From assembly GCA_043100965.1 (NCBI GenBank), contig JBICHR010000001.1:159278-223277 (forward strand): DNA of 64,000 bases, given 5' to 3'. The notes under the pieces are model-generated. The model did no database searches. It was not told where the DNA came from and saw only the letters and a program-made list of their open reading frames with translations. This document shows, piece by piece, positions 42,578-64,000 of the stretch. How positions within the stretch are numbered: the first letter of the stretch is position 1; the number at the start of each line of letters is the position of its first letter. The translations under genes were made by a program, and so were the position numbers. The DNA comes from Phycisphaerales bacterium JB052 (GTDB taxonomy: Bacteria > Planctomycetota > Phycisphaerae > Phycisphaerales > UBA1924).

Positions 42578-42683
42578 TGTTCACACTCCGGCAACCGGAA
42601 TAGACTGGACGGTCTAGGAGTTTGCCTGCTTGAACGCGACTATGCTCAACACAAGAACCACCCAAGTCCATAGGAGGCACCCC

Positions 42684-43001
42684 GTGGCCACACAGACCGT
42701 CATCGAAATCACCGATCAGAACTTCGACACCCTGATCAACAGCAGCAGCCCCACGCTCGTCGACTTCTGGGCACCTTGGTGTGGCCCATGCCGTGCGTTG
42801 GGACCAACGATCGAAAAGCTCGCAGATGATTATGAGGGCAAGGCACAGGTCGGCAAGCTCAACATCGACGAGCACCCGCAGCTGGCCGCCAAGTTCGGGG
42901 TTGCATCGATCCCGACCGTGATCGTCTTCAAAGACGGCCAGGCGACCAAGCAGTTCGTCGGCTTGCGTCAGTACGACGAATACGCCGAAACGCTCGGCTG
43001 A
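42684..43001 (+). CDS. trxA: Thioredoxin
   Basis: VDFWAPWCGPCRALGP active site. GTG 42684 preceded by AGGAGG (42672-42677) gives a 105-aa protein. The track ORF starts at 42630. Confidence 0.9.
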   Translation: MATQTVIEITDQNFDTLINSSSPTLVDFWAPWCGPCRALGPTIEKLADDYEGKAQVGKLNIDEHPQLAAKFGVASIPTVIVFKDGQATKQFVGLRQYDEYAETLG

Positions 43002-43083: not shown

Positions 43084-45819
43084 ATGAGTACCAAAGCCGC
43101 CAAATCGAGCAAGAAAGCACCCAAGGACCCCTGGGACACGCCGGGCATGCGCCAGTGGCGCAAGATCAAAGAACAGCACCCCAACTGCGTGCTCTTCTTC
43201 CGCATGGGCGATTTCTACGAACTCTTCGGCGAGGACGCAGAGAACCTCTCGCGTGATCTGGGGCTCACCCTGACCACGCGGGGCAACGCGATCCCCATGG
43301 CTGGAGTCCCCCACCACCAGAAATCGAACTACATCGCCCGCGCCATCGAGATGGGCTACCGCGTCGCGGTCGTCGATCAGCTCCAAGACCCCAAGGAAGC
43401 CAAGGGTGTCGTCGACCGCGGAGTCACCCAGGTTGTTACGCCCGGCACGCTGGTCGATGAATCGCTGCTGCGTGACGAACAGACCGTCACGCTCGGTTCA
43501 ATCGTGATCCATGATGATTCACACGCGGGGATCGCGATCGCGGAGCTCTCGACCGGGGCGTTCACGCTGTTCGATGGCGATCTGGCTCAGTGCGGCGACG
43601 AGCTAGCCCGCGCCGGGGTGCGCGAGCTGATCTTCGCCGCCCCGATCAGCGGCGACCCACCCAAACGGGTGACCGAACTGGCACAGACCATCAACGCATC
43701 GCCGACCCCCCGCCCGGGGTGGCAGTTCGGGCAAAGCGAAGCGATCGAGGCGCTTGAGCAGCAGTACCGCATCGGGACACTCGAGGGGCTGGGGCTCGAC
43801 GACTCATCCCCGAGCGTGCATGCCGCGGGGGGAATCATTCGGTATCTGAGCGAGACGCAGGCGATCGACAACTCCCAGAACACGCGTGGCCCGGACCAGC
43901 AGCAGGCCACGCTTGCCCACCTGCGTCCGCCCACGCTGCTTCGGCGTGAGTCGCACTGCCTGATCGACCGGGTCTCGCTGAGATCGCTGGAGATCGAGCA
44001 GACGATCCGGGAGCAGTCGCTGGTTGGCTCGCTGGCGGGCGTGTTCCTTGCCAGTCCTGTGGGCACCAAGTGCGTGCTGCACACGCCGATGGGCAAGCGT
44101 CTGGTGCGACAGTGGCTCTCGTCGCCGCTGATCGAGGCTGATGCCATCAACGCGCGTCTGGATGCCGTCGAATCACTCTCGATGAGCAGCACCCTGCGCG
44201 AAGAGCTGGGCGAGGTCCTGGGCGATATCTGCGACCTGGCCCGCATCAGTGGTCGAATTGCGCTGGGGCGGGCCACGCCCCGAGACTTGGTGGCCCTGGG
44301 CGGTGCGAGCGTGCAGATCGATGCGTTGATGCAGGCGGTGGCTCGCTGTGATGCGTTGCGGGTGCAGCATGAAGCGCTGGCCCAGATCAAGGACGGCGTG
44401 CTCCCGCTGGGCGAGGAAATCACCCGGTGCTGTCAGGAGGATGCACCGGCCCACCTGCGTGAGGGCGGGCTGATCAACGACGGCGTCGACCCGCAGCTCG
44501 ACGAGGCACGCTCGCTGCAACGCGATGCGGGCAAATGGCTCAGCGATTACCAGCAGCGTCTGATGGGTGAGCATGACCTGCCCTCGCTCAAGGTCGGATA
44601 CAACAAAGTCTTCGGCTTCTACATCGAGCTGCCCGCGGCTCAGGCCAAGCGGGCGCCCGATGTCTTCACCCGCAAGCAGACGCTCAAGAATGCCGAGCGG
44701 TACATCACGCCCGAGCTCAAGGAATACGAAGAGAAGGTGCTGACCGCGGGGGACCGAGCCAATGAGCGAGAGCGGATCATCTTCGACCAGCTCTGCGAAC
44801 GCGCCCGTCAGCATCTGGACGCGCTGGCCGAGTTCAGCGATATCGTGGCCACGATCGACTGCCTGCTGGGCTTTGCCACCAAGGCCTCGGCCCGCGGCTG
44901 GGTTCGCCCCAAGATTGTCCAAGAGCCCACGCTGGAGATTGTGCAGGGGCGTCACCCCGTGCTCGACGAGACGCTCGGGCACAGCTTTGTCCCCAACGAC
45001 TGCACGCTCGCCCAGGAACACGCGCCGGCGACGCTGGCGCTGATCACCGGGCCGAACATGGCCGGTAAGAGTACCTACATCAGGCAGAATGCGCTGCTGG
45101 TGGTGCTGGCGCAGGCGGGGAGCTTTGTCCCGGCCGCGGGCGCGACGGTTGGGATCGCCAGTCGCATCTTCACCCGCGTCGGGGCCGACGATGCACTGCA
45201 CCGGGGTCAGTCGACCTTTATGGTTGAGATGATCGAAACGGCCAACATCCTCAATCATGCCGACGAGCGCTCGCTGGTGATTCTCGACGAGATCGGGCGG
45301 GGCACCTCGACGCTCGACGGGCTCTCGCTGGCGTGGGCGATCAGCGAGTGGCTGGCGGAGCACCAACCCCGCACGCTCTTTGCCACGCACTATCACGAGA
45401 TCACCGAGCTGGAAACGCGACTCGAGGATCAGGTCAAGAACCTGCATGTGGCCGTGCGCGAGTGGACGACCGAGGACGGGCAGCAGGAGATCGCCTTCCT
45501 GCACAGCATCCGATCGGGGCGTGCCGATCAGTCCTATGGCATTCATGTGGCCCAGCTTGCGGGCGTGCCCAAGACAGTCACGCAGCGGGCCAAGGCGGTG
45601 CTTGAGTCGCTGAGCGTCGAGCACGCCGGGCGGGTGGATACCAAGCAGGTGCAGGCTGCCAACACCGCCTCGGCGAGCTCACAGATGAGTCTGTTCACCG
45701 AGTTCGTGCAGCACCCGGTGGTCGACTCTCTGCGCGAGATGAAACTCGATGAGATGACGCCAATGCAGGCGTTTGATGCACTGCGTGCGATGCAGTCGAC
45801 GCTCAAGGATCCGAGCTGA
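43084..45819 (+). CDS. mutS: DNA mismatch repair protein MutS
   Basis: 911 aa. N-terminal TPGMRQWRKIKEQHP..LFFRMGDFYELF, Walker A ITGPNMAGKST, DEIGRGTSTLDG, THYHEI. Confidence 0.95.
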   Translation: MSTKAAKSSKKAPKDPWDTPGMRQWRKIKEQHPNCVLFFRMGDFYELFGEDAENLSRDLGLTLTTRGNAIPMAGVPHHQKSNYIARAIEMGYRVAVVDQLQDPKEAKGVVDRGVTQVVTPGTLVDESLLRDEQTVTLGSIVIHDDSHAGIAIAELSTGAFTLFDGDLAQCGDELARAGVRELIFAAPISGDPPKRVTELAQTINASPTPRPGWQFGQSEAIEALEQQYRIGTLEGLGLDDSSPSVHAAGGIIRYLSETQAIDNSQNTRGPDQQQATLAHLRPPTLLRRESHCLIDRVSLRSLEIEQTIREQSLVGSLAGVFLASPVGTKCVLHTPMGKRLVRQWLSSPLIEADAINARLDAVESLSMSSTLREELGEVLGDICDLARISGRIALGRATPRDLVALGGASVQIDALMQAVARCDALRVQHEALAQIKDGVLPLGEEITRCCQEDAPAHLREGGLINDGVDPQLDEARSLQRDAGKWLSDYQQRLMGEHDLPSLKVGYNKVFGFYIELPAAQAKRAPDVFTRKQTLKNAERYITPELKEYEEKVLTAGDRANERERIIFDQLCERARQHLDALAEFSDIVATIDCLLGFATKASARGWVRPKIVQEPTLEIVQGRHPVLDETLGHSFVPNDCTLAQEHAPATLALITGPNMAGKSTYIRQNALLVVLAQAGSFVPAAGATVGIASRIFTRVGADDALHRGQSTFMVEMIETANILNHADERSLVILDEIGRGTSTLDGLSLAWAISEWLAEHQPRTLFATHYHEITELETRLEDQVKNLHVAVREWTTEDGQQEIAFLHSIRSGRADQSYGIHVAQLAGVPKTVTQRAKAVLESLSVEHAGRVDTKQVQAANTASASSQMSLFTEFVQHPVVDSLREMKLDEMTPMQAFDALRAMQSTLKDPS

Positions 45820-46351
45820 GATCATCGATACTGGCCCCGCGGGCTCTCCACGCAGCACCGCACTTGTTGCAGACGCAACAACCGTCGGGGTACTCGGGGC
45901 CGTGCATCGAAGCCCAGCACGAGGCGCAGTGAAATGGGAGCGATTTGATCCGCTCTCGCGCGTCCTTGTAGACCGGCTGTTTGGGTTTAGCGATGGCCAT
46001 CGCGATGATGAGGGGTACGACGACGATCGCGATTATGGTCAATAGGAGTTTCAGCAGGAACAACTCACCCTCAAGCACGACGAAGGACCAGTAGATCAGG
46101 CCTCCGATCAATGCCAGCCCGAGGATGATCGCCCAGGCCCATTTTCGTTTCTCACCCTTGGCGGCTGCGCGGGGCGCTTTGGCGACGGTGGCGATCGAGC
46201 GACGCATCAGCACCGCCTGTTTGGTGCGTTGATATTTCTCATCCTTGGGAGCCGCGGAGACATACATCTCAACCCCCATGATCTTCTTGCTTCGAGCCGG
46301 ATCGAGTCGTGCTTGAACGATCAGGTTCCGGTCGTCATAGATATAGCTCAT
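45803..46351 (-). CDS. Zinc-ribbon membrane protein, tandem paralog 4 of 4 (most divergent)
   Basis: 182 aa. YDDRNLIVQARLDPAR, two hydrophobic helices (WAWAIILGLALIGGLIYWSFVVL, LLLTIIAIVVVPLIIAMAIA), and C-terminal HCASCWASMHGPEYPDGCCVCNKCGAAWRARG. The 3' end overlaps the mutS 3' end by 17 nt (convergent). Confidence 0.6.
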   Translation of the reverse strand: MSYIYDDRNLIVQARLDPARSKKIMGVEMYVSAAPKDEKYQRTKQAVLMRRSIATVAKAPRAAAKGEKRKWAWAIILGLALIGGLIYWSFVVLEGELFLLKLLLTIIAIVVVPLIIAMAIAKPKQPVYKDARERIKSLPFHCASCWASMHGPEYPDGCCVCNKCGAAWRARGASIDDLSSDP

Positions 46352-46396
46352 TTGCCCCCCGGTTCACCGCGAGGGTAATCAATTGCGAAACCGGAG

Positions 46397-46960
46397 TCAA
46401 GGCGACGATTCAGGCTCGGTGATTGTTCCCGGATGCACCCGCCACGCACCCCCACATTCGGGGCAGATGGTGCAGCCGTCGGTTTCGACCGTGCTGCCCA
46501 ATGGGTACCAGCATGCGGCACAGTGAGGCGGGTTGGCATCGAGCACGGCGCACAGTTCGTCGTACTTGGAATCGCTGCGTCTCCAGTTCCACCATTGCCC
46601 TGCGATGCAGATCAAGACCAGCACGATGTAGGTGATCCCGATCGCGGGCCAGTTCCATGGCCCGAAGAAGTCCTTGAGCATGGTGCCGTAGATCATCGCT
46701 GTGAATGCCATGCTATAGACAACCCACATGACCCAAACCCACATCGCGCCCGCACGGGTGTCTGGCCGCATGTCAAGCCCCTGAAGCTCGCGCATCGCCA
46801 GCACGAACACCACGCGGGGGTGCTTGCTGAATCGCCGATGCGAGGGGCCCATCTGCAGGCGGAAGCTGCCCCGCCCCTTCCAGACCCCCTCGGGATCCAG
46901 GCGAAGTGGAAGCGACTGCCCGCGGCAATCCCATACGACAGTTTCACGGTGACTCAGCAT
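46397..46960 (-). CDS. Zinc-ribbon membrane protein, tandem paralog 3 of 4
   Basis: ATG 46960 lies one nt after the upstream stop (46962-46964). WDCRGQSLPLRLDPEGVWK, two hydrophobic helices, PPHCAACWYPLGSTVETDGCTICPECGGAWRVHPG. The track ORF extension to 47041 is an alternate-frame read of the upstream gene. Confidence 0.65.
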   Translation of the reverse strand: MLSHRETVVWDCRGQSLPLRLDPEGVWKGRGSFRLQMGPSHRRFSKHPRVVFVLAMRELQGLDMRPDTRAGAMWVWVMWVVYSMAFTAMIYGTMLKDFFGPWNWPAIGITYIVLVLICIAGQWWNWRRSDSKYDELCAVLDANPPHCAACWYPLGSTVETDGCTICPECGGAWRVHPGTITEPESSP

Positions 46961-46961
46961 G

Positions 46962-47429
46962 TCATTCGAGTCTCCAAGCGGCGCCGCATTCGGGGCAGAC
47001 GGTGCAACCATCGGGATCCATAACCAGTCCATCGAGGGCATACCTGCAGACCATGCATGTCTGATCGGTTCGACGGATTAACTCCAGTTCCTTGCCAAGT
47101 CGGTTGATCTCTCGGCGTAGGGTCTTTGGTCGAGTAATGCCGGCCAAAAATAGCATTACACCAAACACACCCACCACGAATGGAACAAGTAAGTATCCAA
47201 ACGACCATGATGAGCGGAGCCCCTGCACGAGCCCGTACCATCCAAAGAGGAACGGCACCGAGAGCAGCAGCATCCCGATCGTTTCGGTGAAGACGACATT
47301 CTTCATGGTCTTCTTCTCGAGCTGCCGCATGATCTCGTGCCTGCGATCTGCGCGGTTGATCAGTTCGGCGGGCAGCGCCGTCAATCGTGAGACTTCGTGT
47401 GTGCATCCGCGATCGTCTGTGATTTTCAT
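46962..47429 (-). CDS. Zinc-ribbon membrane protein, tandem paralog 2 of 4
   Basis: ATG 47429-47427 overlaps the upstream TGA 47428-47426 (ATGA coupling). MKITDDRGCTHEV, two hydrophobic helices, CMVCRYALDGLVMDPDGCTVCPECGAAWRLE. Confidence 0.65.
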   Translation of the reverse strand: MKITDDRGCTHEVSRLTALPAELINRADRRHEIMRQLEKKTMKNVVFTETIGMLLLSVPFLFGWYGLVQGLRSSWSFGYLLVPFVVGVFGVMLFLAGITRPKTLRREINRLGKELELIRRTDQTCMVCRYALDGLVMDPDGCTVCPECGAAWRLE

Positions 47430-47974
47430 CCATGCACCCTCCACGCGCCGCCGCATTCGGGGCAGACGGCGCAGCCATCTTCATCAGCCTGATCTGCGAG
47501 CGGATACCAGCACCCTGCGCAATGGGGCGGTAGTTCTTTGAGCTTCTGCATCATCTGGTGTGCTTTGCGCCTCTGCCTTGGAGTTTCGATCAAGTTGACC
47601 ACGAGACGCACCATGTATCCTGTCGCAAGCAGGATCAGGAGTGTGTATATCGTGGGAAGCACCTGAAACTTGCTTGTATCGCCAAAGACTGTCCCCGCGA
47701 GGGATCCGGAAATCATCACAAGGACGAACACAATGGCCAGAAGATTGAAGAACCTCCAAAGCGCCGATCTTGGCTCATGTACATCTGAAGCCAACGCTCG
47801 ACGATAAAGCACTGAGCAAATGCGTGGATCGGTTTGATACTGCTTGAGGCGTTTGTGTGAGCGCATGCGCAAGTCCACAGGCTTGTGGATCCCCTCGGGG
47901 TCCTCCCGCAGCGCGACCTTCTGCCCACGATCATCAAGCTTGGCCAACAAAGAGCCACCACTCCTTCCGCCCAT
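47426..47974 (-). CDS. Zinc-ribbon membrane protein, tandem paralog 1 of 4
   Basis: 182 aa. LDDRGQKVALREDPEGIHK, two hydrophobic helices (FFNLLAIVFVLVMISGSLAGTVF, LPTIYTLLILLATGYMVRLVV), PPHCAGCWYPLADQADEDGCAVCPECGGAWRVHG. Confidence 0.65.
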   Translation of the reverse strand: MGGRSGGSLLAKLDDRGQKVALREDPEGIHKPVDLRMRSHKRLKQYQTDPRICSVLYRRALASDVHEPRSALWRFFNLLAIVFVLVMISGSLAGTVFGDTSKFQVLPTIYTLLILLATGYMVRLVVNLIETPRQRRKAHQMMQKLKELPPHCAGCWYPLADQADEDGCAVCPECGGAWRVHG

Positions 47975-48039
47975 CCACCACTTTCTGCCACGCGAACATC
48001 ATGACTACCATCTCCCGAGGAAACCAACTGGAGCATCCT

Positions 48040-49128
48040 ATGTCACTCACAGACTACCGCACGCTGGGCAACTCCGGGCTGCGTGTCTCGCCGTTCTGCC
48101 TCGGGACCATGACCTTCGGCGACGACTGGGGCGTGGTGGGCACCACCATCGAGGAATCGCTCGATGTCCTCGGGGCCTACCTCGATCGGGGCGGCAACTT
48201 CCTTGATACCGCCAATGTCTACACCAAAGGGCACAGCGAGAAGATCATCGGGGACTACTTCAAGGACCACCCCGCACGGCGCGACCGCACCGTCATCGCC
48301 ACCAAGTTCTGCGGCAACATGCACCCGGGTGATCCCAACGGCGGCGGCTCGGGGCGCAAGGCAATCATGCATCAGGTCGAGGATTCGCTCCGGCGACTCC
48401 AGACCGAGTACATCGACCTGCTGTGGGTGCACTTCTGGGATCGCCACACGCCGCTGATCGAGACGATGAGTACGCTCAACAATCTGGTGCGGTCAGGCAA
48501 GGTGCGCTACATCGGGTTCAGCGATCACCCCGCGTGGGTGTGCACCGAGGCGATCAACATCGCCAAGCAGCACGGCTGGGAATCGCTCATCGCCTTGCAG
48601 ATCGAGTACTCGCTGCTGCAACGCACGCCCGAGGACGCGTTGCTGCCCATGGCCCAGTATCAGGGGCTGGGCGTGACGCCCTGGTCGCCGCTGCGGGGCG
48701 GGGTGCTCAGCGGCAAGTACACCCGAGACGGGCGGCCATCGCCCGAGGAGACCCGGGCGGCCGTGGACTCGCCGTACCTCAACGAGCGGACCTACACGCT
48801 GCTCGACGAGATGGTCGAGATCGCCAAGGAGCACGATGCCACACCGGCCCAGGTGGCGCTCAACTGGGTGCAGGGCAACAGCGCGATCACCTCGACGATC
48901 ATCGGTGCCAAGCGGCTCTCGCAGCTGGAAGACAACCTCGGGGCGCTGGACTTTGAGCTCAGCCAGGAACAGCGGCAGCGGCTGGAAGCCAAGTGCGTCT
49001 ACGATAAGCACTTCCCCCACAACTTCCTCGATCGCATTACCCCGGCGATTCAGAACGGGACGAGCATCAACGGCACACCCAGCGAGCCGTGGCCGCTGAG
49101 CCCCAAGGATGACAGCGAGCGACACTGA
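48040..49128 (+). CDS. Aldo/keto reductase family oxidoreductase
   Basis: MSLTDYRTLGNSGLRVSPFCLGTMTFG, FLDTANVYTKGHSE (catalytic D/Y/K region), YIDLLWVHFWD, IGFSDHPAW. An alternative in-frame ATG lies at 48001. Confidence 0.85.
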   Translation: MSLTDYRTLGNSGLRVSPFCLGTMTFGDDWGVVGTTIEESLDVLGAYLDRGGNFLDTANVYTKGHSEKIIGDYFKDHPARRDRTVIATKFCGNMHPGDPNGGGSGRKAIMHQVEDSLRRLQTEYIDLLWVHFWDRHTPLIETMSTLNNLVRSGKVRYIGFSDHPAWVCTEAINIAKQHGWESLIALQIEYSLLQRTPEDALLPMAQYQGLGVTPWSPLRGGVLSGKYTRDGRPSPEETRAAVDSPYLNERTYTLLDEMVEIAKEHDATPAQVALNWVQGNSAITSTIIGAKRLSQLEDNLGALDFELSQEQRQRLEAKCVYDKHFPHNFLDRITPAIQNGTSINGTPSEPWPLSPKDDSERH

Positions 49129-50185: not shown

Positions 50186-50385
50186 CTGCAACAGCACAGA
50201 GCGAATTGGCCGTATAGTGATACAGCCCATTCGGGCGGTTTTGTTTGTACCGATGGTCGTTCTGACCGAACGAGAAACTATACGAGTTACCCGCGTACAC
50301 CGGTTCGGACTTGGGCAGTGCCCAATGTGATGTGCGGGATCAAAGCAGACGTTTTTCGTCTATCCACAACTTGAGGTCTCACCAC

Positions 50386-51615
50386 ATGCTTACCACCAGC
50401 ATCGCTGCCGTACTCACGCTCACCGGGCTTGCCGCCGTGGGCCCTGGGCATCAAATCGAACCACAACCAAAGCCGGACACGAATACCGACAGCTCGTTCG
50501 TCGTGATTTCGGATACCGAGATCATCGCCGACGGCGTGACCTACCACTCGTGGCAGGAACTGGCCGAGTCGGGGTACCACCACAACGACGAGACCCGATG
50601 CGCCACCGACAGCTTCGTCGGCGCGGATCACGCATGGGTTGCTCGGGGCGGTGCAGACTGCTCGTCTTCAAGAACCACCATTCGACCGGAGTATGACCCC
50701 TCGGTCGAGAAGTACCGCATCCCGGTCGTCGTGCACATCATCGAGTCGAGTAACGGCACGGGGAGTATGCCCGATTCGCGCGTCTACTCACAGATCGAGA
50801 TCCTCAACGAGGATTTCCAGGCCATCGCGGGCACCAACGGTGCGCCGGGCACCGATGTCCAGATCGAGTTCTACCTAGCGACAGAAGATCCCGACGGCAA
50901 CCCCACCACGGGCATCACCCGCTCCACCAACACCACCTGGTTCAATGATGGCGGCGGCTACTACAACACGCTGGCGTGGGACACCGACCGCTACCTCAAC
51001 ATCTACACCAACAACGGCGGTGGCGCCCTGGGCTATGTCCCCGCCCTCCCACAGAGCGGTATCGCCGGCTCCAACAACGACCGCGTCGTGATCCTCTACT
51101 CGACCTTTGGACGCAACGCGCCCTATTCACCCTTCAACCTCGGTCGTACCGTCACCCATGAGGTGGGCCACTACCTCGGGCTCGAACACACATTCAGCGG
51201 CGGGTGCAGCAATAGCTACACCAGCGGCGACCTCATCGTCGACACCAACCCCGAGAGCAGCCCGACCTACGGCTGCCCTGGCAGCCGGACCTCGTGCGGC
51301 TCGCAGGCACCCATCCATAACTACATGGACTACAGCGACGACATCTGCATGAACCAGTTCACGCCCGAGCAGTCCAACCGCATGCGTTGCTCGCTGCTCA
51401 GCTACCGCCCCGACCTGTTCGAACTTGCCGGCCCCAGTGGCTGCAACGATGCGGACATTGCCGAACCTCTCGGCCAGTTGGACTTCTTCGATGTCTCGGC
51501 CTTCCTGACCGCATTCAACGAAGGTGACAACATCGCCGACTTCGACGGGAACGGCTCGTTCGACTTCTTCGATATCTCGCTGTTCCTGGGCACCTATAAC
51601 GTCGGCTGCCCGTAA
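50386..51615 (+). CDS. Secreted zinc metalloprotease, M43 (pappalysin/ulilysin-like), with C-terminal dockerin-like module
   Basis: Signal peptide from ATG 50386 (MLTTSIAAVLTLTGLAAVG), zincin motif HEVGHYLGLEHTF, downstream NYMDYS (Met-turn region), and a 57-aa Cys-bracketed tail. Confidence 0.8.
   Translation: MLTTSIAAVLTLTGLAAVGPGHQIEPQPKPDTNTDSSFVVISDTEIIADGVTYHSWQELAESGYHHNDETRCATDSFVGADHAWVARGGADCSSSRTTIRPEYDPSVEKYRIPVVVHIIESSNGTGSMPDSRVYSQIEILNEDFQAIAGTNGAPGTDVQIEFYLATEDPDGNPTTGITRSTNTTWFNDGGGYYNTLAWDTDRYLNIYTNNGGGALGYVPALPQSGIAGSNNDRVVILYSTFGRNAPYSPFNLGRTVTHEVGHYLGLEHTFSGGCSNSYTSGDLIVDTNPESSPTYGCPGSRTSCGSQAPIHNYMDYSDDICMNQFTPEQSNRMRCSLLSYRPDLFELAGPSGCNDADIAEPLGQLDFFDVSAFLTAFNEGDNIADFDGNGSFDFFDISLFLGTYNVGCP
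51442..51612 (+). other. Cys-bracketed twin dockerin/EF-hand-like C-terminal module (copy in the M43 protease)
   Basis: CNDADIAEPLGQLDFFDVSAFLTAFNEGDNIADFDGNGSFDFFDISLFLGTYNVGCP. Two repeats, each an acidic loop followed by FFD(V/I)S(A/L)FL, bounded by Cys...GCP. Confidence 0.7.
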
Positions 51616-61047: not shown

Positions 61048-61722
61048 ATGAACAAGTTCACCACCATCACCGCCCTGCTGCTCGCCAGCACCATCGCCCA
61101 GGCCGACACGACCCAGAACGGGCCCAGCAACTACACCATCGATGAGGGGGTCAGCTTCTCGCTGGGCAATCTTGGCCCGAACGATTGGCTGTTCAGCTGG
61201 AGCGATAGCTCGGGCACCTTCACCGAAGTTGCCGACCCGACGATCACCCTGACCGCCGGCCAGACCTACATCTTTGACAATCTCACGACCATCCACCCAT
61301 TCGTCATCACCGATGACACACTGGTGGTCAACGGCACCGACGGCGATTTCAGCCGAGAAACATTCGATGGCCCGGTCATCGACGCCGCAACGCTCCAGCC
61401 CATGGCGGACTTTACCGCCGATCCCGAACCGGCCGACGATGTGATCTCATGGACGCCTAGCGACAGCGACGCCGGCGAGTACTGGTACACATGCCGCATT
61501 GCCGGGCACGCGGGGATGACGGGCAAGCTGGTGATCGTCGAGGCCCCCGCCTCGTGCCCGGCGGACCTGACCGGTGAGGGCGAGCTGAACTTCTTCGATG
61601 TCAGTGCCTTCCTCGCCGCGTTTGCTGCCGGCGACCCAGCCGCCGATTTCACTGGCGATGGCATGTACAACTTCTTCGATGTCAGCGCGTTCCTTGGCGC
61701 CTTCGCTGCTGGCTGCCCCTGA
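61048..61722 (+). CDS. Secreted cupredoxin-like (type-1 copper) protein with C-terminal dockerin-like module
   Basis: Signal peptide MNKFTTITALLLASTIAQA. HPF...YWYTCRIAGHAGMTGKLVIV supplies a His...Cys-x4-His-x2-Met ligand pattern. 55-aa Cys-bracketed tail. Confidence 0.65.
   Translation: MNKFTTITALLLASTIAQADTTQNGPSNYTIDEGVSFSLGNLGPNDWLFSWSDSSGTFTEVADPTITLTAGQTYIFDNLTTIHPFVITDDTLVVNGTDGDFSRETFDGPVIDAATLQPMADFTADPEPADDVISWTPSDSDAGEYWYTCRIAGHAGMTGKLVIVEAPASCPADLTGEGELNFFDVSAFLAAFAAGDPAADFTGDGMYNFFDVSAFLGAFAAGCP
61555..61719 (+). other. Cys-bracketed twin dockerin/EF-hand-like C-terminal module (copy in the cupredoxin)
   Basis: CPADLTGEGELNFFDVSAFLAAFAAGDPAADFTGDGMYNFFDVSAFLGAFAAGCP. Same organisation as 51442-51612. 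Confidence 0.7.
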
Positions 61723-63087: not shown

Positions 63088-64000
63088 ATGAGCACGGCCC
63101 AGATCAAAATCATGACCGATCGCGAATGTGATCACTGTGGTTACAACCTCAAAGGCCTGCCCGTTGAGGGCAAATGCCCCGAGTGCGGGGCCCCGATCAG
63201 GCGGCTCTCGTTGCGCACATCGGGCACGATGACCGACGAGGCCCCCACCCGCTTCGTGCGAAAAATGAGAATGGGCTTTGCCTTTGCCAGCGCCGCGATC
63301 ATCGGCAGTCTCTTGGTCAAAGTCTTTTCGCTCTACCCCCTCCTGAACATCCCGCTCGCATGCCTTTGGGTTGCGGGCATTTTCATCATCACCTCCCAGC
63401 GCCCGGGCAAGGGGCACATTCGGCCAGACAAGGTCCTCGACAATGATCGCCTGCGATTGATCGTGCGTGTCGCCAATCTCACATGGCCCGCACGCACCCT
63501 GATTACGGCCGCGATCTTTGCCCTCCAGAGCAACCCAGCCGGGGGCAGCGTCAACGCCATCAACGCCTTGGCCGTCCTCGGCACGATTGTTCAGATCGCT
63601 TCGTGGATCTGCATGATCCCCACCAGCATCTACCTTGCCGAACTCGCATACTGGGCTTCGCACGACAACCTCGCGTACCGCATGCGTGGGGCGGCGTGGA
63701 TCCTTGCCGTCATCGGCACACTCGTTGCCGTCATGACCGGGCTGGGGATCGTGCTCAGCAGTCCACTCATACTGGCGCTCACCTTCCTCCCGGCTGTGAT
63801 CGTGCTGATCACCATTCTGGTATACAACTTCACATTCATCCAGATGACCCTGGTGATGCATCATGTGATCTACCACCAGCACCTCGTCGCGACCTCGTTC
63901 GAACGCAAAGAGGAGCGCCGAAAGAAAGAAGAACAATACAAAGGCCGCATCGTGGACGACATGCCGTGCGATCGGTGCGGGTACAACCTGATCGGGCTCG
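63088..64000 (+). CDS. Polytopic membrane protein with N-terminal CxxCGYNL...CPECG zinc ribbon and a second ribbon starting at the window edge (3' end outside window)
   Basis: Absent from the ORF track (no stop in the window). I translated frame 1 from ATG 63088 (in-frame TGA at 63067) to 64000 with no stop: MSTAQIKIMTDRECDHCGYNLKGLPVEGKCPECGAPIRRL..., then at least 5 hydrophobic helices, then ERKEERRKKEEQYKGRIVDDMPCDRCGYNLIGL... The opposite-strand 349-aa ORF (62887-63936) is Asp/Glu/Gly/Arg-rich antisense noise. Confidence 0.7.
   Translation, partial: MSTAQIKIMTDRECDHCGYNLKGLPVEGKCPECGAPIRRLSLRTSGTMTDEAPTRFVRKMRMGFAFASAAIIGSLLVKVFSLYPLLNIPLACLWVAGIFIITSQRPGKGHIRPDKVLDNDRLRLIVRVANLTWPARTLITAAIFALQSNPAGGSVNAINALAVLGTIVQIASWICMIPTSIYLAELAYWASHDNLAYRMRGAAWILAVIGTLVAVMTGLGIVLSSPLILALTFLPAVIVLITILVYNFTFIQMTLVMHHVIYHQHLVATSFERKEERRKKEEQYKGRIVDDMPCDRCGYNLIGL

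What the first reader, a model, noticed from the sequence alone, without database searches (positions are those of the whole stretch)
45803..47974. Four tandem, translationally coupled paralogs: 2-TM proteins ending in a CxxC-x(11-13)-CxxCPECGxxW zinc ribbon
Four consecutive minus-strand ORFs (47974-47426, 47429-46962, 46960-46397, 46351-45803) share one architecture.
- An N-terminal soluble stretch carries a recurring motif: LDDRGQKVALREDPEGIHK / ITDDRGCTHEV / WDCRGQSLPLRLDPEGVWK / YDDRNLIVQARLDPAR.
- Two hydrophobic helices and a basic linker follow.
- The C-terminus is a four-Cys ribbon: PPHCAGCWYPL..DGCAVCPECGGAWRVHG / CMVCRYAL..DGCTVCPECGAAWRLE / PPHCAACWYPL..DGCTICPECGGAWRVHPG / HCASCWASM..DGCCVCNKCGAAWRARG.

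The junctions are an ATGA overlap (47426-47429), TGA-n-ATG (46960-46964) and a 45-nt spacer, so the four genes look like one operon. The last gene overlaps the mutS 3' end by 17 nt in convergent orientation.

Outside the ribbon the copies have diverged strongly, and the block looks less GC-rich than its neighbours. I do not recognise the family or any described function. Tandem amplification with fast divergence of small membrane proteins that keep a conserved metal-binding tail fits a receptor, immunity or adaptor-type family. This is my best candidate for an undescribed system in the window.
Basis: partly seen in the sequence, partly recalled or inferred. Interest (0 to 1): 0.7.

Follow-up and report, generated by a model that had tools for sequence, protein, structure and literature searches.

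The report
Tandem membrane zinc-ribbon paralogs, function unknown
Four back-to-back genes encode small inner-membrane hairpin proteins whose two cytoplasmic ends (a D-x-R-G beta-hairpin and a zinc ribbon) appear to clasp together; they belong to a very large, unnamed protein family seen almost only in Phycisphaerae, whose function is unknown but which most likely forms mixed membrane-tethered adaptor complexes.

Summary
Four minus-strand paralogs (A 47974-47426, B 47429-46962, C 46960-46397, D 46351-45803) share one architecture, with ATGA, 1-nt and 45-nt junctions and a 17-nt convergent overlap with mutS. One correction: five Cys are conserved, not four. The zinc ligands are most likely CxxC-x15/16-CPxC (99-100% conserved), and the "DGC" Cys (86%) is an extra.

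No Pfam, NCBIfam, PADLOC or PHROGs model reaches threshold. No PDB or BFVD fold matches, and no paper describes the family. It is nevertheless large: 5,924 50%-identity clusters, with every named source in Phycisphaerae/Planctomycetota. Members form same-strand arrays of 1-11 copies at conserved housekeeping positions (AKR|array|mutS; purF|array|mqnA). Junctions are tight (median gap 6.5 nt) and units are often fused into two- or three-unit proteins.

The genes are under purifying selection (dN/dS 0.15-0.30). Topology is N-in/C-in with a very short outer loop. Coevolution links the N-terminal hairpin tip to the ribbon.

Best reading, inferred: hetero-oligomeric membrane-tethered cytoplasmic adaptors. 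Defence, holin and anti-sigma readings lack contextual support. This is a real, uncharacterised family rather than a demonstrated "system".

The parts
47426..47974 (-). Paralog A (182 aa; NCBI calls a start 27 nt downstream). D-x-R-G hairpin aa 13-23 (47906-47938); TM1 aa 77-99 (47678-47746); loop aa 100-108; TM2 aa 109-131 (47582-47650); basic linker aa 132-151; ribbon aa 152-179 (47438-47521).
   Evidence: AF2 model: pLDDT 83, pTM 0.72. Ortholog P0002 87% identical, L081 63%, dN/dS 0.30.
46962..47429 (-). Paralog B (155 aa; ATGA overlap with A). Hairpin aa 3-14 (47388-47423); TM1 aa 45-67 (47229-47297); TM2 aa 79-104 (47118-47195); ribbon aa 125-153 (46971-47057).
   Evidence: Orthologs starting MKITDDRG (P0007 92% identical, P0010 79%) support this start. 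dN/dS 0.15.
46397..46960 (-). Paralog C (187 aa; 1-nt spacer after B). Hairpin aa 9-20 (46901-46936, motif DCRG); TM1 aa 72-94 (46679-46747); TM2 aa 106-126 (46583-46645); ribbon aa 147-174 (46439-46522). Sister paralog of A.
   Evidence: Orthologs P0005, P0006 and P0012 are 38-46% identical.
45803..46351 (-). Paralog D (182 aa; 45-nt spacer after C; 17-nt convergent overlap with mutS). Hairpin aa 4-15 (46307-46342, motif DDRN); TM1 aa 71-93 (46073-46141); 3-residue loop; TM2 aa 97-121 (45989-46063); ribbon aa 142-169 (45845-45928, CNKC instead of CPEC).
   Evidence: Ortholog P0003 86% identical; P0004 matches over its 147 aa and is labelled Phycisphaerales bacterium JB047.
47975..48036 (.). 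62-nt divergent intergenic region between A and the aldo/keto reductase gene (48037-49128, +). It presumably holds the array's promoter.
   Evidence: No sigma-70 consensus site was found, which is uninformative for this phylum.
43084..45819 (+). mutS, the convergent downstream neighbour. It is a conserved synteny anchor, not part of the array.

Best explanation
Shown. The four genes are one tightly coupled array of an uncharacterised protein family seen essentially only in Phycisphaerae. Each unit is a small inner-membrane hairpin protein with both ends in the cytoplasm:
- an N-terminal beta-hairpin with an invariant D-x-R-G tip;
- a short helical region;
- two TM helices joined by a very short outer loop;
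- a basic helical linker;
- a C4 zinc ribbon (CxxC-x15/16-CPxC-G-A-A-W-R/K) with a frequent fifth Cys.

Inferred.
- The hairpin tip docks on the 'D-G-C' strand of the ribbon, so the two termini form one composite cytoplasmic domain held at the membrane surface.
- Neighbouring paralogs assemble into mixed (hetero-)oligomers through their TM hairpins and/or hairpin-ribbon contacts.
- The conserved composite domain binds a conserved cytoplasmic partner, protein or nucleic acid, and tethers or sequesters it at the inner membrane.
- The fast-diverging helical and TM parts tune assembly or specificity.

In short, this is a combinatorial, membrane-anchored zinc-ribbon adaptor with a housekeeping role specific to this lineage. 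My confidence in the descriptive part is about 0.85 and in the mechanism about 0.35.
For: Real genes:
- dN/dS is 0.15-0.30, against 0.09-0.20 for flanking housekeeping genes.
- The family has 5,924 clusters at E<=1e-3 and 2,509 at E<=1e-10.

Architecture and topology:
- Two hydrophobic segments occur in nearly all members.
- K/R are enriched before TM1 and after TM2 and are sparse in the loop.
- AF2 gives pLDDT 83 and pTM 0.72, with hairpin E11-13/E19-21, TM helices 71-97 and 106-147, and ribbon strands 168-170/177-179.

Conserved ends: D 100%, R 94%, four Cys 99-100% and W 100%, while the rest is 19-28% identical.

Hairpin-ribbon coupling:
- DCA top pairs include 13-150, 13-148, 13-159, 17-135 and 18-135.
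- Loss of the tip Arg goes with loss of the DGC Cys: 19/27 against 64/420, p=1e-9.

Oligomerisation and co-expression:
- Same-strand arrays of 1-11 copies occur in 80 loci.
- The median junction gap is 6.5 nt; 23 of 62 junctions overlap, 11 of them by ATGA.
- 18 of 165 ORFs are two-unit fusions, and most top-scoring representatives are two- or three-unit fusions.
- A two-unit fusion folds with pLDDT 77 and pTM 0.59.

Housekeeping rather than accessory role:
- Arrays sit at two conserved positions, AKR|array|mutS in about 25 loci and purF|array|mqnA-FAH in about 15.
- In L085 the family genes overlap the flanking core genes.
- No viral copies were found.

Functional precedent: CdpC is fast-evolving and membrane-associated, and its conserved zinc ribbons bind FtsZ1 (bioRxiv 10.64898/2026.07.16.738847).
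Against: - No partner has been identified, and no conserved neighbour suggests one.
- There is no experimental or expression data.
- The hairpin-ribbon coupling statistics are not corrected for phylogeny, and I could not inspect the AF2 coordinates. The contact is therefore inferred, and cis cannot be told from trans.
- Copy number (1-11) and composition vary even between close relatives: A-B-C-D here, X-B-A in L081. That argues against a fixed-stoichiometry complex and would equally fit a diversifying family involved in some conflict.
- The low GC3 of A and B suggests low expression or relaxed codon selection.
Confidence: 0.4

Rival explanations
1. Conflict or defence effector. The two-TM hairpins oligomerise into a pore or membrane-disrupting assembly (like abortive-infection 2TM effectors or holins) when the cytoplasmic zinc-ribbon/hairpin sensor is triggered. 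Arrays of divergent paralogs would broaden recognition.
For: - There are weak sub-threshold matches to a PADLOC '2TM effector' (E 0.046) and to holin models.
- Copy number and composition turn over quickly between relatives.
- A evolves faster than its neighbours: 63% identity against 84-92%.
- GC3 is low in A and B.
Against: - All those matches fall far below the cut-offs and lie in the TM region only.
- No defence, toxin, endolysin, integrase or other mobile genes occur next to the arrays in any context inspected.
- Arrays sit at positions conserved across many species, sometimes overlapping core genes.
- The family is absent from viral contigs.
- dN/dS is well below 1.
Confidence: 0.12
2. 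Membrane-bound regulator. The protein holds a transcription factor (for example an ECF sigma factor) or another regulator at the membrane through the zinc-ribbon domain and releases it on a membrane or redox signal, in the manner of an anti-sigma factor.
For: - The cytoplasmic Cys-rich metal site sits next to the membrane, and the fifth conserved Cys could be redox-sensitive.
- Planctomycetota encode many ECF sigma factors (own knowledge).
- Thioredoxin-fold genes lie within about 3 kb in both synteny types, which may be coincidence.
Against: - No sigma factor or regulator gene is adjacent in either conserved synteny type.
- There is no match to zf-HC2/ZAS or RskA models.
- The ZAS motif HxxxCxxC is absent.
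- The periplasmic loop is too short to sense anything outside.
- This is really a special case of the adaptor model.
Confidence: 0.12
3. Small channel, or accessory or assembly subunits. Oligomers of two-TM hairpins form an ion or metal-conducting pore (CorA/ZntB-like in principle), or act as small subunits or chaperones of larger membrane complexes, with the ribbon as a gating or docking domain.
For: - Two-TM oligomeric channels are common.
- There is a weak profile match to the ZntB TM region (E 0.58).
- Gly-rich TM helices are compatible with tight helix packing.
- Fusions give four- and six-TM proteins.
Against: - The match is not significant.
- There are no conserved polar or charged pore-lining residues in the TM helices; the TM columns have low information content.
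- The most conserved parts are cytoplasmic, not in the membrane.
- There is no consistent neighbouring complex.
Confidence: 0.1
4. The ORFs are not functional genes (spurious ORFs or decaying duplicates).
For: GC3 is low in A and B. There is no expression data.
Against: - dN/dS is 0.15-0.30.
- Thousands of homologs share conserved motifs.
- AF2 models are confident.
- Synteny is conserved.
Confidence: 0.01

Closest known systems
Generic C4 zinc ribbons (Pfam Zn_Ribbon_1 PF13240, DZR PF12773, DUF7129 PF23455; haloarchaeal CPxCG micro-proteins such as the HVO_0758 family)
   Same: Two CxxC/CPxCG knuckles about 15 residues apart on short beta-hairpins. There are weak sub-threshold matches (HVO_0758 E 0.04-0.17; DZR in a few homologs).
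   Different: - No model reaches its cut-off.
- This ribbon has its own signature: Y-x-L-x-G ... D-G-C-x-V-CPECG-A-A-W-R.
- It has a fifth Cys, sits next to the membrane after a two-TM hairpin, and co-varies with an N-terminal D-x-R-G hairpin.
CdpC, the haloarchaeal membrane anchor of FtsZ1 (bioRxiv 10.64898/2026.07.16.738847)
   Same: It is membrane-associated and evolves fast outside its conserved zinc ribbons, which mediate protein-protein binding. This is the best functional analogy for a zinc-ribbon membrane tether.
   Different: CdpC is archaeal, has two ribbons joined by a long disordered linker, and binds the membrane through an amphipathic helix rather than a TM hairpin. It is neither tandemly arrayed nor shown to be homologous. 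Planctomycetota lack FtsZ (own knowledge).
PqiA/LetA-type transporters (zinc ribbon plus TM modules, internally duplicated; Nature 2026, PMC13017536, seen)
   Same: Cytoplasmic zinc ribbons are attached to TM modules, and the modules are duplicated in tandem within one protein, like the two- and three-unit fusions here.
   Different: In PqiA/LetA the ribbon precedes a four-TM module. There is no Pfam PqiA match, and Foldseek against a PDB copy current to April 2026 found nothing. There are also no MCE partner genes nearby.
Two-TM abortive-infection effectors and holins
   Same: They are small proteins with a TM hairpin. Matches are weak and sub-threshold.
   Different: There is no sensor, cyclase or endolysin context and no viral copies. 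The conserved part here is cytoplasmic, and the arrays sit in housekeeping synteny.
The ~415-aa Phycisphaerae ribbon/multi-TM/ribbon family (window 63088->end; P0265) and L086_11023
   Same: They carry the same kind of juxtamembrane cytoplasmic ribbon (CxxCGYxLxGL...CPECG) on membrane proteins of the same lineage. This points to a shared lineage-specific module.
   Different: They have different TM cores, no D-x-R-G hairpin, no DGC or A-A-W signature, and are single-copy. They are also uncharacterised, so they give no functional information.

Membership tests
C4 zinc ribbon (structural class) | Four metal ligands in two CxxC-type knuckles, each at a beta-hairpin turn | tested here: met
   C152/C155 and C171/C174 are 99-100% conserved over 151 units and invariant in A2 and A3. 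AF2 places the CPEC knuckle between strands 168-170 and 177-179, with pLDDT 91-95.
C4 zinc ribbon (structural class) | Actual zinc binding | not testable with these tools
   Requires ICP-MS or PAR assay on purified protein.
Pfam DZR (PF12773) / Zn_Ribbon_1 (PF13240) | Score at or above the Pfam gathering threshold | tested here: not met
   There is no hit for A-D at E<=10 except unrelated TM noise. P0121 scores 13.6 bits against DZR, cut-off 27.3. Only 1 of the 120 listed homologs carries a precomputed PF12773 hit.
HVO_0758 family zinc finger protein (NCBIfam NF041912 / Pfam PF23137) | Score at or above the curated cut-off (70 bits); a small soluble protein | tested here: not met
   11.8-13.9 bits for A, C and D and 19.4 bits for P0017. 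These proteins are membrane-anchored.
Prokaryotic RING finger family 1 (PF14446) | Cross-brace site with eight ligands and two zinc ions; score at or above 29.1 bits | tested here: not met
   14.3 bits for B only. Only five Cys are conserved.
Zinc-binding anti-sigma factors (ZAS, zf-HC2) | N-terminal HxxxCxxC motif, a single TM helix, and an adjacent co-transcribed ECF sigma gene | tested here: not met
   There is no model hit. The ribbon is C-terminal after two TM helices. No sigma gene is adjacent in either synteny type.
Two-TM defence effectors (PADLOC) | Significant model match and association with a sensor or signal-generating defence gene | tested here: not met
   PDLC00667 matches at E 0.046 (11.2 bits) for A only. 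No defence genes lie within +/-10 kb in L081-L086.
Holins | Phage or prophage context with an endolysin; a holin family match | tested here: not met
   Pfam and PHROG holin matches have E 0.09-0.14 and fall below cut-off. None of 44 viral-contig pattern matches is a relative. The flanks are housekeeping genes.
PqiA/LetA | PqiA domain (zinc ribbon followed by a four-TM module, twice) with an MCE partner | tested here: not met
   There is no PF04403 hit and no structural match in the PDB. The domain order is the reverse, and no MCE genes are nearby.
Operon / translational coupling (of the four genes) | Same strand, overlapping or near-abutting stop and start codons; a single transcript | tested here: inconclusive
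   The sequence part is met: gaps of -4, +1 and +45 nt, and a family-wide median of 6.5 nt. The single transcript cannot be tested here. No internal terminator was found on the minus strand.

The most novel reading that the evidence does not exclude
The units polymerise head-to-tail. The D-x-R-G hairpin of one unit docks in trans on the zinc ribbon of its neighbour, as natural two- and three-unit fusions and coupled translation would favour. This would build chains or a lattice on the cytoplasmic face of the inner membrane: a Phycisphaerae-specific combinatorial membrane skeleton or organiser, for example a positioning or division scaffold in a clade that lacks FtsZ. Paralog diversity would set the geometry or the clients.
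Probability: 0.08. Interest if true: 0.85.

Novelty: new variant of a known kind. Interest (0 to 1): 0.5.

Why it matters
The family has at least 5,900 sequence clusters, is often present in many copies per genome, and sits inside core-gene neighbourhoods of a widespread marine and soil bacterial class. It still has no name, no domain model, no structural relative and no proposed role.

Defining it gives annotators a new domain family, made of a D-x-R-G hairpin, a two-TM hairpin and a DGC-CPECGAAW ribbon. It also gives experimentalists a tractable target, since the protein is small and has clear point-mutant predictions.

If the composite zinc-ribbon module proves to be a general membrane-tethering handle, it would expose a lineage-specific way of organising the cytoplasmic membrane face in Planctomycetota, whose cell biology is unusual and poorly understood. 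The related juxtamembrane ribbons on other Phycisphaerae membrane proteins hint at this. If it is only a structural oddity on minor membrane proteins, the impact is limited to annotation.

Tried and rejected
- **Curated libraries.** Pfam, NCBIfam, PADLOC and PHROGs were scanned for A-D and for multi-unit or long homologs. Only sub-threshold TM or ribbon noise came back.
- **PDB by sequence profile**. The only hit at or below about 1e-3 is Otopetrin, through TM composition, and I rejected it.
- **Foldseek.** The one-unit model was searched against the PDB and BFVD, and the two-unit model against the PDB. No match had E below 0.1.
- **Literature**. Nothing describes the family. CdpC and LetA were kept only as analogies.
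- **Viral contigs**. No relatives were found, which weakens the phage, holin and superinfection-exclusion ideas.
- **Conserved partner genes**. Recurrent neighbours are housekeeping genes: AKR, MutS, PurF-like, MqnA-like and FAH. A TPR gene follows the array in only 6 loci and is absent here. The idea of a multi-gene system was rejected.
- **Extra N-terminal domain of about 280 aa** in the 620-650-aa homologs. It has no known domain, so it gives no functional lead.
- **Recent tandem amplification or gene conversion.** Rejected, because ribbon DNA is 60-71% identical and each copy has its own orthologs.
- **Horizontal island, suggested by lower GC.** Rejected, because the position is syntenic in about 25 species. 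Low GC3 is confined to A and B.
- **Promoter and terminator scan**. It was uninformative.
- **Organism names for multi-unit forms** via cluster look-up. Few names came back. The only organism name given is Phycisphaeraceae, and P0258's longest contig has the same length as the Phycisphaeraceae contig behind L008.

Full report
**1. Observation**

The four minus-strand ORFs are present exactly as described:

| Copy | Coordinates | Length |
|---|---|---|
| A | 47974-47426 | 182 aa |
| B | 47429-46962 | 155 aa |
| C | 46960-46397 | 187 aa |
| D | 46351-45803 | 182 aa |

All run from ATG to TGA.
- The junctions are an ATGA overlap (A/B), TGA-C-ATG (B/C) and a 45-nt spacer (C/D).
- D overlaps the 3' end of mutS (43084-45819) by 17 nt in convergent orientation.
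- The copies are 25-33% identical overall. The ribbon is 45-70% identical and the remainder 19-28%.
- An HMM of the four finds only these four in a six-frame scan of the window, at E 1e-47 to 1e-87, with the next hit at E 0.014. The similarity is not chance.

Three corrections apply.
1. Five Cys are conserved, not four. Over 151 units, the first CxxC and the CPxC pair are 99-100% conserved, while the Cys of 'D-G-C' is 86% conserved. In the two-unit alignment only the former four are invariant. A related protein in the same window has just CxxC-x12-CPECG. The metal site is therefore most likely C152/C155/C171/C174 in copy A numbering, and C168 is an accessory residue.
2. The start codons of A, B and C have alternatives. 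NCBI starts A 9 codons later (P0001), and upstream ATGs exist at 47456 and 47041. The upstream extensions are only out-of-frame read-through of the previous copy's ribbon. The peptide 'APSAPNAA' corresponds to CPECGAAW read in another frame, and it is also seen at the N-termini of database entries P0015 and P0022.
3. The lower GC is real but small: 0.58 against 0.645 for the flanks and 0.61 for the window. At third codon positions only A and B stand out (0.63-0.65 against 0.75-0.88).

**2. What it is**

No curated model reaches threshold in Pfam, NCBIfam, PADLOC or PHROGs. A profile search of PDB sequences gives only TM noise.

The AlphaFold2 model of A, built with a 65-sequence alignment, is confident (pLDDT 83.3, pTM 0.72). 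It shows:
- an N-terminal beta-hairpin (residues 11-13 and 19-21) with D-D-R-G at its turn;
- helices 40-65;
- TM helices 71-97 and 106-147, the second continuing as the basic linker;
- a ribbon with strands 168-170 and 177-179.

Foldseek finds no similar structure in the PDB (best E 1.3) or in BFVD (best E 0.17). Three full-text literature searches found nothing on the family.

The family is nevertheless very large.
- A word-indexed search returned 483 hits, all 'hypothetical', and every named source is Phycisphaerales, Phycisphaerae or Planctomycetota. The window matches 'Phycisphaerales bacterium JB052' at 99% identity.
- An exhaustive profile search of 1.84 billion cluster representatives returned 5,924 proteins at E<=1e-3, 2,509 at E<=1e-10 and 134 at E<=1e-30.
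- In one genome per GTDB species, 295 stretches encode relatives. The 80 best loci come almost entirely from Phycisphaerae-type MAGs.

**3. Anatomy across the family**

The hydrophobicity pattern and the motifs recur in nearly all of the 120 listed hits. Column statistics over 151 full-length units give:
- D 100%, D 72%, R 94% and G 83% at the hairpin tip;
- low-information hydrophobic, Gly-rich TM columns;
- K/R fractions of 0.3-0.65 just before TM1 and 0.3-0.58 just after TM2, but about 0.1 in the inter-TM loop;
- a strongly conserved ribbon: C-P-x-C-G-Y-x-L-x-G-L-x-P-E-x-D(95%)-G(93%)-C(86%)-T-V-C(100%)-P-E-C(99%)-G-A-A-W(100%)-R/K(87%).

By the positive-inside rule both termini are cytoplasmic. 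The only external part is a loop of 3-11 residues in the window copies. That makes an extracellular receptor role unlikely.

**4. Genomic organisation and evolution**

An HMM scan of the 80 loci finds 205 units, almost always in same-strand tandem arrays of 1-11 copies.

Clustering of flanking ORFs shows two recurrent positions:
- Type 1: aldo/keto reductase (divergent) | array | mutS (convergent), as in the window, in about 25 loci.
- Type 2: purF-like | array | mqnA-like, followed by a FAH-family gene, in about 15 loci.

In L085 the family genes overlap both purF and mqnA at their start and stop codons. Other arrays sit next to beta-oxidation or ATP-synthase/PGK genes. No defence, mobile-element, toxin or regulator gene recurs. 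A TPR gene follows the array in only 6 type-1 loci and is absent here. No relative exists in 2.9 million viral contigs.

Each window copy has its own orthologs elsewhere:

| Copy | Orthologs |
|---|---|
| A | P0002 (87%), L001_3 |
| B | P0007 (92%), L028_1 |
| C | P0005 (46%), L002_2 |
| D | P0003 (86%), L003_1 |

A and C are sister paralogs. A close relative, in which MutS is 84% and AKR 92% identical, carries X-B-A-TPR instead of A-B-C-D. The array therefore evolves by old duplication followed by birth-and-death and rearrangement at a fixed locus.

Ribbon-coding DNA is only 60-71% identical between copies. Ribbon conservation is thus due to selection on the protein, not to gene conversion. 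dN/dS against the relative is 0.30 for A and 0.15 for B, compared with 0.09-0.20 for five flanking genes.

**5. Evidence on mechanism**

*(a) Coupled expression and physical association of neighbours.* Of 62 junctions between separate adjacent units, 23 overlap (11 by ATGA) and 11 more lie within 10 nt; the median gap is 6.5 nt. In the GTDB loci, 18 of 165 family ORFs are natural two-unit fusions. Most of the 150 best representatives are two- or three-unit fusions of about 300-550 aa. By the Rosetta-stone argument this points to interaction between adjacent units. A two-unit fusion folds with pLDDT 77 and pTM 0.59, with ribbon pLDDT of 94-98.

*(b) A composite cytoplasmic domain.* I ran mean-field DCA on 452 non-identical units (Meff 420). 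After setting aside artefacts from invariant columns, the strongest couplings include:
- hairpin-ribbon pairs: tip Arg with the DGC Cys, with D148 and with A159, and hairpin strand 2 with the residue inside the first CxxC;
- intra-ribbon and linker-ribbon pairs.

Units lacking the tip Arg lack the DGC Cys in 19 of 27 cases, against 64 of 420 for units that keep it (Fisher p=1.3e-9, not corrected for phylogeny). Together with the high pLDDT (about 92) of an otherwise isolated N-terminal hairpin, this suggests the hairpin tip docks on the D-G-C strand of the ribbon. Whether the contact is in cis or in trans is unresolved.

*(c) A recurring ribbon type.* The same juxtamembrane ribbon (CxxCGYxLxGL...CPECG) occurs on other Phycisphaerae membrane proteins:
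- a family of about 415 aa with ribbon, multi-TM core, ribbon and an acidic tail, starting at window 63088;
- a 251-aa protein with TM, periplasmic domain, TM and ribbon, placed next to an array in L086.

This hints at a shared lineage-specific handle on the cytoplasmic membrane face.

**6. Best explanation and rivals**

The best-supported reading is a family of hetero-oligomerising, membrane-anchored adaptors. A conserved composite zinc-ribbon/hairpin domain binds a conserved cytoplasmic partner, and the divergent helical and TM parts set assembly or specificity. The identity and architecture are shown. The oligomerisation, the clasp and the tethering role are inferred. CdpC of Haloferax is a functional precedent for fast-evolving, membrane-associated proteins whose conserved zinc ribbons bind a partner, in that case FtsZ1.

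The rivals are:
- a two-TM defence or holin-like effector, supported only by turnover and sub-threshold TM matches, and contradicted by context and by absence from viruses;
- an anti-sigma-like sequestering regulator, for which no adjacent sigma gene and no ZAS motif exist;
- a small channel or accessory subunit, which is unlikely because the TM helices lack conserved polar residues and the conservation is cytoplasmic;
- non-genes, which selection and the breadth of the family exclude.

**7. Comparison with known families, and novelty**

The building blocks, a C4 zinc ribbon and a TM hairpin, are ordinary. The family itself fails every membership test I could run: DZR/Zn_Ribbon_1, HVO_0758, Prok-RING_1, ZAS, PADLOC 2TM, holins and PqiA/LetA.

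Its distinguishing features are:
- the D-x-R-G hairpin coupled to a DGC-CPECGAAW ribbon;
- tandem, fused and translationally coupled units;
- a massive expansion seen almost only in Phycisphaerae, at housekeeping loci.

I class it as a new variant of a known kind, membrane-anchored zinc-ribbon proteins. It is an undescribed domain family of unknown function, not a demonstrated new system.

**8. Verdict**

The family is real and uncharacterised, but it is old and widespread rather than a local fast amplification. It is unlikely to be a receptor and has no support as an immunity system.

Interest is 0.5. This is a solid, large 'dark' family with a testable structural hypothesis, but no function or link to an open question has yet been shown.

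Noticed in passing
window 63088-63999 (+), runs off the window end: This is a different membrane protein; its full-length relative P0265 is 414 aa and 93% identical. It carries a related ribbon (CDHCGYNLKGLPVEGKCPECG) at the N-terminus, then a multi-TM core, a second ribbon (CDRCGYNLIGL...CPECG) and an acidic tail. It defines a separate, also uncharacterised family: 46 hits, every named source Phycisphaerae. Some members hit DZR or DUF7129, and JGI labels some 'predicted Zn-ribbon and HTH transcriptional regulator'.
   Followed up: partly
L086 11023-11778 (+): A 251-aa gene directly after a two-copy array has a different architecture: TM, a domain of about 170 aa (presumably periplasmic), TM, then RRSRRRA-CEHCGYDLTG...CPECG. 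The juxtamembrane ribbon therefore appears to be a reusable module on several Phycisphaerae membrane proteins.
   Followed up: partly
P0142, P0179, P0192, P0233, P0245 (homologs, 618-649 aa): These two-unit family members carry an extra conserved N-terminal region of about 280 aa (TM plus a soluble domain) that matches no Pfam or NCBIfam model. It may be a functional clue that I could not decode.
   Followed up: partly
window 50311-51615 (+) and 61048-61722 (+): An M43-type metallopeptidase and a 224-aa cupredoxin-like protein both end in the repeated 'FFDVSAFL...GCP' motif. It matches NCBIfam NF041540, the GC-type dockerin domain anchor (E 2e-7 and 2e-14), which is a known feature.
   Followed up: yes
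L001/L081 11055-11996 (+); also L002, L012, L027, L043, L048: In 6 type-1 loci a secreted TPR-containing protein of about 313 aa sits on the same strand between the array and mutS. It is absent from the window, where copies C and D occupy that space.
   Followed up: partly
window 42630-43001 (+); L085 12203-13438 (-): Thioredoxin-fold genes lie within about 3 kb of the array in both conserved synteny types (thioredoxin beyond mutS; an AhpC/Redoxin/Thioredoxin fusion beyond mqnA-FAH). This may be coincidence, but it is worth remembering because of the fifth conserved Cys.
   Followed up: no
window 47430-47456 and 46961-47041 (-); P0015, P0022 N-termini: Upstream in-frame extensions of B and C, and the annotated N-termini of some database homologs, read 'APSAP(N/S)A...G'. 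This is the previous copy's CPECGAAW ribbon translated out of frame. It marks mis-called starts and shows that those homologs are also preceded by a tightly abutting family member.
   Followed up: yes
window 46962-47974 (-): Copies A and B have distinctly lower third-position GC (0.63 and 0.65) than C and D (0.77 and 0.72) and than nine other window genes (0.75-0.88), even though the locus is syntenic across species. This could reflect low expression or relaxed codon selection, and remains unexplained.
   Followed up: partly
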